A stretch of 64,000 bases of DNA from Promethearchaeota archaeon (GTDB taxonomy: Archaea > Asgardarchaeota > Lokiarchaeia > Sigyniarchaeales > SOKP01). Positions 44,415 to 59,686 of the stretch are shown piece after piece. A program made the translations under genes and the position numbers. The stretch covers positions 1,068,843-1,132,842 of the forward strand of contig JAHPZA010000006.1 of the NCBI GenBank assembly GCA_019058445.1, given 5' to 3'. The notes below the pieces were generated by a model. It worked only from the letters and a program-made list of their open reading frames with translations. It was not told where the DNA came from and ran no database searches. Each line of letters opens with the position of its first letter. Position 1 is the stretch's first letter.

Positions 44415-44441
44415 TAGCCCGGCACGGATTCGAACCGTGGT

Positions 44442-44471
44442 TTCCCGCTTCTTGGTTCGAAACCAAGAAGT
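44442..44471 (-). other. BHB tRNA intron 2 (variable loop, about position 45/46), 30 nt
   Basis: CCCG UG|A CUUCUUGGUU-UCG-AACCAAGAAG CGGG AA|A. Confidence 0.9.
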
Positions 44472-44490
44472 CACGGGGTTCAAGGCCCCA

Positions 44491-44520
44491 TTCGCAGTAG
44501 AAAGATTTAACCCATCTACT
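44491..44520 (-). other. relaxed BHB tRNA intron 1 (about position 26/27), 30 nt
   Basis: AGCA UC|A GUAGA...UCUAC UGCG AA|U; central helix closed by A.G. Confidence 0.82.
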
Positions 44521-44574
44521 GATGCTTGGCCACTACACCACCGGGCTGAATATTGTTCAAATGTTTATAAAATT

Positions 44575-59302: not shown

Positions 59303-59686
59303 TTAAATTTTAGCTAGGATCTCCTTAAGCACAGGTTCTCCTGCTGCACCGATCATCATTCCATTTTGTACAAGAGGTTGACCTTGAACTTCTATTATAC
59401 CGTTTACCAGCTCTCCATCCTTGAAGAAAAGCAAGGTGGGGATTGCTGTAATCCCAAATAACTCGCCTAATGGGCGATTCTGGTCAAGATCTACCTGTAT
59501 AAGCTTTATGGCTCCTTCATCACGCAACTTATGAAGTATGGGGGCAACAAACTTGCAAGGCCCGCACCATTCCCGTCTGAGCGAGAAATTCTCTCAGATT
59601 ACGGTGTATATATCGATTAATAATATGCCTTGCTTATGTTCCTCGGTGATATTTAGTCCAACAGATTTTAATTCGTCAATATTCAC
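59303..59686 (-). CDS. trxA: thioredoxin split by a predicted 30-nt BHB intron; join(59686..59600, 59569..59303), 117 aa
   Basis: Exon 1 MNIDELKSVGLNITEEHKQGILLIDIYTV (GTG start, AGGTTGA upstream) plus exon 2 WCGPCKFVAPILHKLRDEG...GITAIPTLLFFKDG; both in frame across a TGA at 59594-59596. Confidence 0.88.
59570..59599 (-). other. predicted mRNA intron (relaxed BHB), 30 nt: ATCTGAGAGAATTTCTCGCTCAGACGGGAA
   Basis: ACCG UA|A UCUGAG...CUCAGA CGGG AA|U; same geometry as the tRNA-Gln introns; contains an in-frame UGA. Confidence 0.8.

What the first reader, a model, noticed from the sequence alone, without database searches (positions are those of the whole stretch)
59303..59686. Thioredoxin mRNA interrupted by a tRNA-type (BHB) intron immediately before the WCGPC active site
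Seen: the ORF track splits this gene into two in-frame pieces. The minus strand reads GAT ATA TAC ACC GTA [ATC TGA GAG AAT TTC TCG CTC AGA CGG GAA] TGG TGC GGG CCT TGC. The bracketed 30 nt (59599-59570) contain a stop codon and fold as ACCG-UAA-UCUGAG...CUCAGA-CGGG-AAU, that is a central helix, a 3-nt bulge, an inner stem and a second 3-nt bulge. Cutting after the second nucleotide of each bulge (the established rule for archaeal splicing endonuclease EndA) removes exactly these 30 nt. The product is D-I-Y-T-V-W-C-G-P-C, the canonical thioredoxin DxxxxWCGPC spacing, in a 117-aa protein with the cis-Pro motif (AIPT) intact. Unspliced RNA would give only a 30-aa peptide. Established: BHB introns in archaeal mRNA are rare, the main example being crenarchaeal cbf5; I know of none in Asgard thioredoxins. 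Inference: thioredoxin production depends on EndA/RtcB splicing, a non-spliceosomal mRNA splicing event in the lineage closest to eukaryotes, mechanistically reminiscent of HAC1/XBP1. Caveat: a competing strict register (CCGU/ACGG, 28 nt) would frameshift.
Basis: partly seen in the sequence, partly recalled or inferred. Interest (0 to 1): 0.95.

Follow-up and report, generated by a model that had tools for sequence, protein, structure and literature searches.

The report
Mini-intron splitting an Asgard thioredoxin gene
A thioredoxin gene of an Asgard archaeon is interrupted just before its active site by a 30-base hairpin insert that relatives have kept as a structured RNA, so it is most likely an intron cut out of the messenger RNA by the tRNA-splicing enzymes; in print this is documented inside a coding sequence for only one other archaeal gene (cbf5).

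Summary
The gene (59686-59303, minus strand) carries a 30-nt insert (59599-59570) with an in-frame TGA, directly before WCGPC.

The same insert sits at the same site in 21 other metagenomic or genomic loci. All have a stop, and one has TAA. The exons are under strong purifying selection. The insert evolves as RNA: it shows compensatory stem changes and no codon periodicity. A close syntenic relative lacks exactly these 30 nt.

Relatives also carry 30-34-nt inserts at a second site 16 nt downstream. Most of those shift the frame. For the 32-nt and 30-nt ones, a canonical bulge-helix-bulge (BHB) predicts the in-frame junction exactly.

This genome holds at least six further protein genes (EF-2 paralogue, gyrB, acs, Sir2 and others) with 30-nt inserts of the same layout. 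It also encodes EndA and RtcB.

Best reading: an EndA/RtcB-spliced mRNA intron (about 0.8).

Caveats:
- No RNA data exist for this locus.
- In this window the in-frame register has only 3 of 4 central pairs.
- A stricter 28-nt register would frameshift.
- The BHB fold is not the minimum-energy fold.

Selenocysteine, read-through, bypassing and pseudogene readings are disfavoured. The scan has already noted such introns on other DNA, including this thioredoxin family and this genome.

The parts
59600..59686 (-). Exon 1 of thioredoxin (GTG start at 59686-59684; 29 codons ending ...D-I-Y-T-V)
   Evidence: It aligns with the N-termini of insert-less relatives. dN/dS is 0.06-0.09 against close insert-bearing relatives.
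59570..59599 (-). 30-nt insert, the candidate BHB-type mRNA intron, with in-frame TGA at 59596-59594. Layout: 1 nt + 9-position stem + 5-nt loop + 9 + 4 + 2
   Evidence: The same-site insert occurs in 21 other loci. Covariation is shown. Substitutions show no codon periodicity. A clean 30-nt gap appears against the syntenic insert-less locus L198.
59303..59569 (-). Exon 2 of thioredoxin (WCGPCK... through cis-Pro AIPT to the TAA stop at 59305-59303; 88 codons)
   Evidence: (Pfam Thioredoxin 7.9e-15).
59602..59605 (-). Exon strand of central helix H (ACCG). It pairs with intron CGGG at 59572-59575 in 3 of 4 positions, with an outer A.G
   Evidence: The middle pair covaries C-G <-> U-A (7 against 10 sequences). 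The adjacent Tyr/Phe third position is C in 18/18 insert-bearing genes against 17/101 insert-less genes.
59599..59601 (-). 5' bulge UA|A (predicted cut between 59600 and 59599)
   Evidence: Geometry. The cut rule (between the second and third bulge residues) is from PMC2738675.
59576..59598 (-). Intron hairpin h': arms 59598-59590 and 59584-59576, loop 59589-59585
   Evidence: 91.5% of cells pair across 17 distinct sequences, and 3 pairs change on both sides.
59572..59575 (-). Intron strand of central helix H (CGGG)
59569..59571 (-). 3' bulge AA|U (predicted cut between 59570 and 59569)
   Evidence: The same |A...AA| ends occur in other 30-nt inserts of this genome.

Best explanation
The 30 nt at 59599-59570 are a bulge-helix-bulge-type mini-intron in the thioredoxin pre-mRNA.

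Proposed mechanism: the last exon nucleotides (A)CCG pair with CGG(G) near the intron's 3' end. A 9-position intron hairpin stacks on this helix. The triplets UA|A and AA|U are left unpaired. The archaeal splicing endonuclease EndA cuts between the second and third nucleotide of each triplet. RtcB then joins the exons to give ...ACC GUA|UGG UGC..., which encodes a normal 117-aa thioredoxin (DIYTV-WCGPC). The unspliced RNA encodes only a 30-aa peptide.

What is shown here (by computation only):
- the insert, its conservation as a structured RNA, and its precise presence or absence among relatives;
- selection on both exons;
- the fit of the cut rule to the in-frame junction;
- canonical BHB introns at a second site of the same gene family and in other genes of the same genome;
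- the presence of EndA and RtcB genes.

What is inferred: that cleavage and ligation take place, and that they use the 30-nt register.
For: 1. Same-site 30-nt inserts occur in 22 loci from independent metagenomes and MAGs. All contain an in-frame stop.
2. RNA-level constraint: 4 pairs change on both sides, 0/500 shuffles reach the observed covariation, and 80-92% of cells pair against 27-47% when slid.
3. The exons have dN/dS of 0.06-0.09 with synonymous sites saturated between clades. The insert keeps 79% nucleotide identity, and its variable columns by codon position are 5/8/6 of 10, against 63/31/113 of 116 in exons.
4. L198 is collinear with insert-bearing L005/L006 at about 84% over 0.9-1.35 kb and lacks exactly the 30 nt. 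On the tree, insert-less genes nest within both insert-bearing clades.
5. Second site (TGY A|AG TTT): the inserts are 34, 32 and 30 nt. The first two shift the frame, yet the downstream frame is intact. In L155-157 the top of 1,128 cut-site combinations is a canonical hBHBh' (CAUG/CAUG) that yields WCGPCKFIAPIL.
6. Same genome: the EF-2 paralogue, ChlI/VWA, Sir2 and flavin-reductase genes carry 30-nt stop-containing inserts whose in-frame solution ranks 1 of 2,419. The acs insert shows the same 3/4 helix with an outer A.G as trx, yet only its 30-nt removal restores GEPI|NPEAW. All share the |A+9+5+9+4+AA| layout, which trx matches only in the 30-nt register.
7. EndA (2.7e-18) and RtcB (2.6e-172) genes are present. 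Asgard EndA is reported as (alpha-beta)2 with the broad-specificity L1 loop (PMC5829648). cbf5 introns are likewise mostly relaxed BHBs (PMC2738675).
Against: No RNA evidence of any kind is available for this locus.

In this window's clade the in-frame register has only 3 of 4 central pairs and a 1-bp outer helix. A register shifted by one nucleotide has 4/4 pairs plus a 2-bp outer helix, but it would excise 28 nt and shift the frame.

Neither BHB register is the minimum-energy fold. A hairpin plus exon-exon helix (CACCGU/AUGGUG) is 4-6 kcal/mol more stable.

The relaxed BHB class arises by chance at many boundaries (bioRxiv 10.64898/2026.10.13.758758).

My genome-wide scans did not separate real from control hits.

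Only one EndA catalytic-domain gene was detected, so the two-subunit architecture is not shown for this genome.
Confidence: 0.8

Rival explanations
1. EndA does cut here, but mainly or partly in the strict 28-nt register. Most transcripts would then be frameshifted, and the insert would act as an attenuator or switch of thioredoxin output, or the gene would be only weakly productive.
For: In this window's clade the 28-nt register is the better BHB (H 4/4, h' 5-8, h 2-3). It is 2 kcal/mol more stable than the 30-nt register.
Against: Exon 2 is under strong purifying selection in frame with exon 1, so productive 30-nt excision must occur. In the second clade (15 loci) the U-to-A change removes the extra pair, and the 30-nt register ranks first. 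The acs insert of this genome has the same ambiguity, but only its 30-nt removal restores a universal motif. The shared |A...AA| 30-nt layout fits only the in-frame register.
Confidence: 0.07
2. The insert is translated. The TGA would be read as selenocysteine or tryptophan, or read through, giving a 127-aa thioredoxin with a 10-residue loop before WCGPC.
For: The TGA is conserved in 21 of 22 loci. The genome encodes SepSecS (1e-113). Public gene calls list 127-128-aa proteins with W at this position.
Against: Those W residues come from callers choosing code 4 on short contigs. TGA ends 318 of 2,512 long open frames in this genome. L007 has TAA instead of TGA. The insert's 'codons' are not conserved as protein (third codon E/W/V/M), and the second codon position varies most. 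Second-site inserts of 32 and 34 nt shift the frame. Rfam finds no SECIS or other family. Insert-less relatives have no residue aligned to the putative Sec.
Confidence: 0.02
3. Ribosomes bypass (hop over) the 30 nt during translation, as in phage T4 gene 60 or yeast mitochondrial byps.
For: There is a stop codon right after the take-off region, a hairpin in the gap, and exon-exon pairing that could bring the two sides together.
Against: Take-off and landing codons do not match: GUA/GAA here, GAA/GAU in L004, GUU/GAA in L007. Bypassing is not known in archaea. The BHB cut rule predicts the junction exactly at the second site and in other genes of this genome, which bypassing does not explain.
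Confidence: 0.04
4. The gene is dead or dying, or works as two separate polypeptides, and the insert is a neutral DNA insertion or a small mobile hairpin.
For: The genome has other thioredoxins, so this copy need not be essential. The hairpin is an inverted repeat.
Against: Both exons show dN/dS of 0.06-0.09 over divergences where synonymous sites are saturated, in 18 distinct insert-bearing genes with no other lesion. The insert is unique in the genome. In this window no start codon allows a C-terminal piece that includes WCGPC. Exon synonymous sites next to the insert are constrained.
Confidence: 0.04

Closest known systems
cbf5 pre-mRNA intron of Crenarchaeota (Watanabe 2002; Yoshinari 2006; Yokobori 2009, PMC2738675)
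   Same: Both are short introns inside a protein-coding sequence at a conserved active-site motif. Both have a mostly relaxed BHB with predicted cuts between the second and third bulge residues. Both hosts have a hetero-oligomeric, broad-specificity EndA. Both show patchy gain and loss among relatives.
   Different: The gene (thioredoxin) and lineage (Asgard) differ. This intron has a fixed 30-nt layout shared with other genes of the same genome. cbf5 splicing is shown by cDNA and in vitro cleavage, whereas nothing here is shown at RNA level.
BHB intron in the 5' UTR of Haloferax volcanii HVO_1309 (PMC7714728; reviewed in PMC10485636)
   Same: It is an EndA substrate in an mRNA, a short intron of 46 nt, and is released as a circle.
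   Different: It lies in the untranslated leader, so it does not interrupt a reading frame. The host has an alpha2-type EndA and the BHB is canonical. It was verified experimentally.
Non-canonical tRNA introns of Asgard archaea (bioRxiv 10.64898/2026.10.13.758758; PMC5829648)
   Same: They would use the same presumed enzymes and the same motif logic (exon/intron central helix, 3-nt bulges), and they also show frequent gains.
   Different: The substrate here is an mRNA, so reading-frame restoration is the constraint rather than the cloverleaf.
HAC1/XBP1 unconventional splicing (Ire1 plus RtcB or Trl1)
   Same: It is non-spliceosomal removal of an mRNA intron by an endonuclease that cuts stem-loops, followed by tRNA-ligase joining.
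   Different: The endonuclease is different (Ire1, stress-regulated) and the splicing is cytoplasmic and regulated. Nothing here suggests regulation.
Programmed translational bypassing (T4 gene 60; Magnusiomyces byps)
   Same: It also involves a short stop-containing, hairpin-forming gap inside a conserved gene.
   Different: It requires matched take-off and landing codons, which are absent here.

Membership tests
Archaeal BHB (EndA-spliced) intron | [quoted passage not shown] | tested here: inconclusive
   The in-frame register gives ACCG/CGGG, which is 3 of 4 pairs with an outer A.G. A 4/4 helix exists only in the 28-nt register. The middle pair covaries. The acs intron of this genome has the same 3/4 form.
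Archaeal BHB (EndA-spliced) intron | Two 3-nt bulges on opposite strands, each holding a cut site between its second and third nucleotide, with the cuts giving the functional junction | tested here: met
   The bulges UA|A and AA|U remove exactly 59599-59570 and give DIYTV|WCGPC. This matches insert-less relatives. The rule is from PMC2738675. The 3' bulge is poorly closed, with an outer helix of only 1 bp.
Archaeal BHB (EndA-spliced) intron | At least one flanking helix (h or h') | tested here: met
   h' is a 9-position stem, 91.5% paired across 17 sequences, with 3 covarying pairs.
Archaeal BHB (EndA-spliced) intron | The host encodes the splicing endonuclease and an RtcB-type ligase | tested here: met
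   PF01974 matches at C9:770595-770843 (2.7e-18). PF01139 matches at C1:114713-116020 (2.6e-172). The two-subunit architecture and L1 loop were not examined in this genome and are taken from PMC5829648.
Archaeal BHB (EndA-spliced) intron | A spliced RNA and/or excised (circular) intron is observed | not testable with these tools
   No RNA run is listed for this stretch.
Thioredoxin (PF00085) | Thioredoxin fold with WCGPC and cis-Pro, and normal spacing from the beta-2 Asp | tested here: met
   Pfam matches at 7.9e-15. After removal the spacing D-x4-WCGPC equals that of 120 insert-less relatives.
Selenoprotein (UGA = Sec) | UGA is conserved as the codon, a Cys or Sec aligns in homologues, and a SECIS element is present | tested here: not met
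   L007 has TAA. Insert-less homologues have no aligned residue. Rfam gives no hit. The Sec machinery itself is present.
Programmed translational bypass | Matching take-off and landing codons flanking the gap | tested here: not met
   The pairs are GUA/GAA, GAA/GAU and GUU/GAA.

The most novel reading that the evidence does not exclude
This Asgard genome, and Asgard archaea more widely, would routinely splice messenger RNAs with the tRNA-splicing machinery. A class of stereotyped 30-nt mini-introns (|A, 9-bp stem, 5-nt loop, 4-nt exon-pairing tract, AA|) sits in many ordinary and essential protein genes (EF-2 paralogue, gyrB, acs, Sir2, thioredoxin and others). These introns are gained and lost at exact boundaries between close relatives, with a hot spot of two sites around the thioredoxin active site. 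That would make protein-gene introns and mRNA splicing a normal feature of the closest archaeal relatives of eukaryotes.
Probability: 0.55. Interest if true: 0.85.

Novelty: new member of a known kind. Interest (0 to 1): 0.66.

Why it matters
In the papers I could search, EndA-dependent splicing inside an archaeal coding sequence is documented only for crenarchaeal cbf5, plus one haloarchaeal 5'-UTR intron. A 2023 review says more 'remain to be discovered' (PMC10485636).

If the thioredoxin insert is spliced, then:
- protein-gene introns exist in Asgard archaea, the lineage nearest to eukaryotes;
- they are removed by a non-spliceosomal pathway;
- they turn over quickly between close relatives.

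There is also a practical side. Gene callers currently handle these genes in three wrong ways: they truncate them, split them, or translate them with code 4, which creates spurious 127-128-aa proteins with a false Trp. Annotation and pseudogene counts of Asgard genomes are affected.

Tried and rejected
- **RNA evidence:** no RNA holder is listed for window:58400-61300. Of the four DNA runs, only X1, the probable source, covered the locus.
- **Genome-wide BHB-plus-ORF-join scans with a parallel-pairing control:** strict criteria gave 201 real against 188 control hits. Relaxed criteria gave 1,570 against 1,541. The fixed 30-nt layout gave 9 against 3 at best. These scans are swamped by same-frame gene boundaries and miss short exons, so no genome-wide count is claimed.
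- **Folding energy as a signal:** z = 0.03.
- **Repeat or mobile-element idea:** the hairpin occurs once in the genome at up to 3 mismatches.
- **Rfam at E <= 1:** nothing.
- **Near-identical insert-less copy (possible cDNA-derived contig):** the best is 83% among 142 loci. P0003-P0005 are 74-85% at nucleotide level and lie on multi-gene, DNA-like contigs.
- **Gain or loss within the genus:** same-genus genomes hold insert-less 114-aa genes, but these are not syntenic within +/-1.5 kb, so no polarity is inferred.
- **Shared sequence among the 30-nt inserts of this genome:** about 10 of 30 positions are identical, roughly what this A+T-rich composition would give by chance (my estimate, not computed), so only the layout is shared.
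- **Exon-exon helix as the conserved structure:** its closing pair is unpaired in 7 of 17 sequences, which is weaker support than for the CCG/CGG helix.

Full report
**1. The observation**

It has a GTG start and 29 codons ending D-I-Y-T-V. Then come 30 nt (59599-59570) with an in-frame TGA (59596-59594). Then follow TGG TGC GGG CCT TGC and 83 further codons to a TAA stop.

ORF listing splits the gene. The read-through translation matches Pfam Thioredoxin at 7.9e-15. The insert contains a 9-position stem (one A.G) with a 5-nt loop.

By energy the region is unremarkable (z = 0.03), and the hairpin occurs only once in the 4.6-Mb genome. A separate Logan assembly of the probable source run reproduces the locus without a difference.

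**2. What relatives show**

A protein search found several classes of relatives in Asgard (Promethearchaeota) metagenomes and MAGs:
- many 114-118-aa relatives without the insert;
- 127-128-aa proteins with a 10-residue insert at exactly this site and W at the TGA position;
- 96-97-aa proteins starting inside the insert.

The W is an artefact. Those proteins translate only with TGA=W, because the caller chose code 4 on short contigs.

Among 142 related loci fetched, 22 including the window carry a 30-nt insert at this site. Every one has an in-frame stop. L007 has TAA rather than TGA, inside a fully re-paired 9-bp stem. TGA is an ordinary stop in this genome, ending 318 of 2,512 long frames.

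**3. RNA or protein?**

On 17 distinct 54-nt rows (alignment A2):
- the hairpin is 91.5% paired, with three pairs changed on both sides;
- the exon/intron helix CCG/CGG becomes CUG/CAG in the second clade;
- 0 of 500 shuffles reach the observed covariation;
- sliding the partners drops pairing from 80-92% to 27-47%.

The exons have dN/dS of 0.06-0.09 for close pairs, and synonymous sites are saturated between the two clades. The insert nevertheless keeps 79% nucleotide identity. Its variable columns fall 5/8/6 by codon position, against 63/31/113 in exons, and its third 'codon' is E, W, V or M.

The synonymous Tyr/Phe third position just upstream is C in 18/18 insert-bearing genes and in 17/101 insert-less genes (the sequences are not phylogenetically independent).

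So the gene is alive, and the insert is selected as a structured RNA that includes exon nucleotides.

**4. Presence and absence**

On a tree of 123 genes the insert occupies two separate clades. Each is interleaved with insert-less genes. A gene with a second-site insert (L083) is sister to a first-site gene (L007) with 99% support.

L198 is collinear with insert-bearing L005/L006 at about 84% over 0.9-1.35 kb including neighbouring genes. It differs by one clean 30-nt gap at this site. L006 also shares the window's nitrilase neighbour.

**5. A second site in the same gene family**

L081 and L083 (34 nt), L155-157 (32 nt) and L196 (30 nt, three stops; a genome of the window's own family) are interrupted at TGY A|AG TTT, 16 nt downstream. 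The 32- and 34-nt inserts shift the frame while the downstream frame stays intact. No read-through mechanism can explain that.

For L155-157 I scored all 1,128 combinations of cut site and length using one explicit BHB rule. The best in all three loci is a canonical hBHBh' (CAUG/CAUG, bulges CA|A and AU|A or AG|A, h' 3-5, h 4-6). It yields WCGPCKFIAPIL in frame. The 34-nt form has 3 of 4 central pairs.

**6. The register problem in this window**

[quoted passage not shown] The cuts fall between the second and third bulge residues.

The in-frame register gives ACCG/CGGG (3/4, outer A.G), h' 6-9 and h 1. A register one nucleotide over gives CCGU/ACGG (4/4), h' 5-8 and h 2-3, but it removes 28 nt and shifts the frame. 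That register is 2 kcal/mol more stable. An exon-exon helix plus hairpin is more stable still.

Four things favour the 30-nt register:
- Selection on exon 2 in frame.
- In the 15-locus second clade, a U-to-A change abolishes the extra pair, and the 30-nt register ranks first.
- The natural insert-less alleles differ by exactly 30 nt.
- The pattern in the same genome, described next.

**7. Other genes of this genome**

Following leads from earlier notes of this scan, I tested these myself.

One EF-2-like gene has a TAG in its GTPase domain. Of 2,328 cut-site combinations that remove it, the best is a canonical BHB (ACAG/CUGU, h' 9, h 2) of 30 nt. It restores QMTD|SDDEEQERGITI.

A layout-restricted scan then pointed to further 30-nt, stop-containing inserts:
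- ChlI/VWA (MNPEE|GELRPQ);
- gyrB (LEGV|RKRPAMYIG);
- acs (GEPI|NPEAW);
- Sir2;
- an alpha/beta hydrolase;
- a flavin reductase.

Pfam identifies all seven proteins. Single domains span the insert in EF-2, acs and Sir2.

In a local unbiased scan the in-frame solution ranks 1 of 2,419 for EF-2, ChlI, Sir2 and flavin reductase. The acs insert has the same ambiguity as trx: ACCA/UGGG with an outer A.G, and a 'strict' 28-nt alternative. Yet only its 30-nt removal restores a universal motif.

All eight inserts are 30 nt long. Seven of the eight begin with A, all have A at position 29, and six have A at position 30. They share no sequence beyond that.

**8. Machinery**

EndA and RtcB genes are present. 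ARAGORN finds only 23 tRNAs, 19 of them called with introns. This fits the heavily interrupted tRNA genes described for Asgard archaea. Asgard EndA is reported as (alpha-beta)2 with the L1 loop that confers broad specificity. I did not verify that for this genome. SepSecS is present, so Sec had to be excluded on sequence grounds, as set out above.

**9. Comparison with what is known**

The closest precedent is the cbf5 intron of Crenarchaeota. It is also short, also at an active-site codon, also mostly a relaxed BHB, and also patchily distributed.

A 2020 paper and a 2023 review list cbf5 and a Haloferax 5'-UTR intron as the only mRNA cases. My two literature searches found no report of such introns in Asgard protein genes. 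The library is incomplete, so this is not proof of absence.

This scan had already noted BHB-type inserts in other Asgard and DPANN genomes, in this genome, and in this thioredoxin family at several sites.

**10. Verdict**

It is a new member of a known kind. Splicing itself and the cut register remain to be shown at RNA level.

Noticed in passing
G000 (outside the window): C10:684145(-), C9:269072(-), C9:608331(-), C10:621900(-), C9:775892(-), C2:158365(-), C10:5858(+); loci L177-L183: Seven other protein genes of this genome carry 30-nt stop-containing inserts with the same |A+9+5+9+4+AA| BHB layout: an EF-2 paralogue, ChlI/VWA, gyrB, acs, Sir2, an alpha/beta hydrolase and a flavin reductase. 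In-frame removal restores conserved motifs.
   Followed up: partly
L081:~94-127, L083, L155-L157, L196 (relatives): There is a second intron site in the same thioredoxin family, at TGY A|AG TTT, 16 nt downstream of the first. The inserts are 34, 32 or 30 nt. The 32-nt and 30-nt forms have a canonical CAUG/CAUG central helix.
   Followed up: yes
P0002, P0011, P0015, P0016, P0022, P0023, P0032, P0042, P0065 (public protein sets): The 127-128-aa 'thioredoxins' with an IW.N.S... insert are annotation artefacts. Gene callers used code 4 (TGA=W) on short contigs and translated the intron. P0006, P0017, P0033 and P0077 are truncated calls that start inside it.
   Followed up: yes
window 44415-44547 (-) and whole genome: ARAGORN finds only 23 tRNA genes in 4.6 Mb, 19 of them called with introns. 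One is a tRNA-Thr(GGU) with a 38-nt intron inside the window. Many tRNA genes are probably too interrupted to be detected.
   Followed up: no
G000:C6:1056455-1057600(-) and C6:1064114-1064614(+), 4-12 kb before the window: A SepSecS gene (1e-113) lies close to a 468-aa EF-Tu-family GTPase that may be SelB. The organism probably makes selenoproteins.
   Followed up: no
G000:C9:448595, 456873, 465190 (+): Three near-identical copies of a gene segment each contain the same 30-nt BHB-like candidate (H 4/4, stem 9/9) with short flanking frames. It is unclear whether this is a repeated gene with an intron or a chance hit.
   Followed up: no
window 59558-59611 (-): The minimum-energy fold pairs the two exons (CACCGU with AUGGUG) beside the intron hairpin, not the BHB. 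Whether this alternative conformer competes with splicing or holds the exon ends together is unknown.
   Followed up: partly
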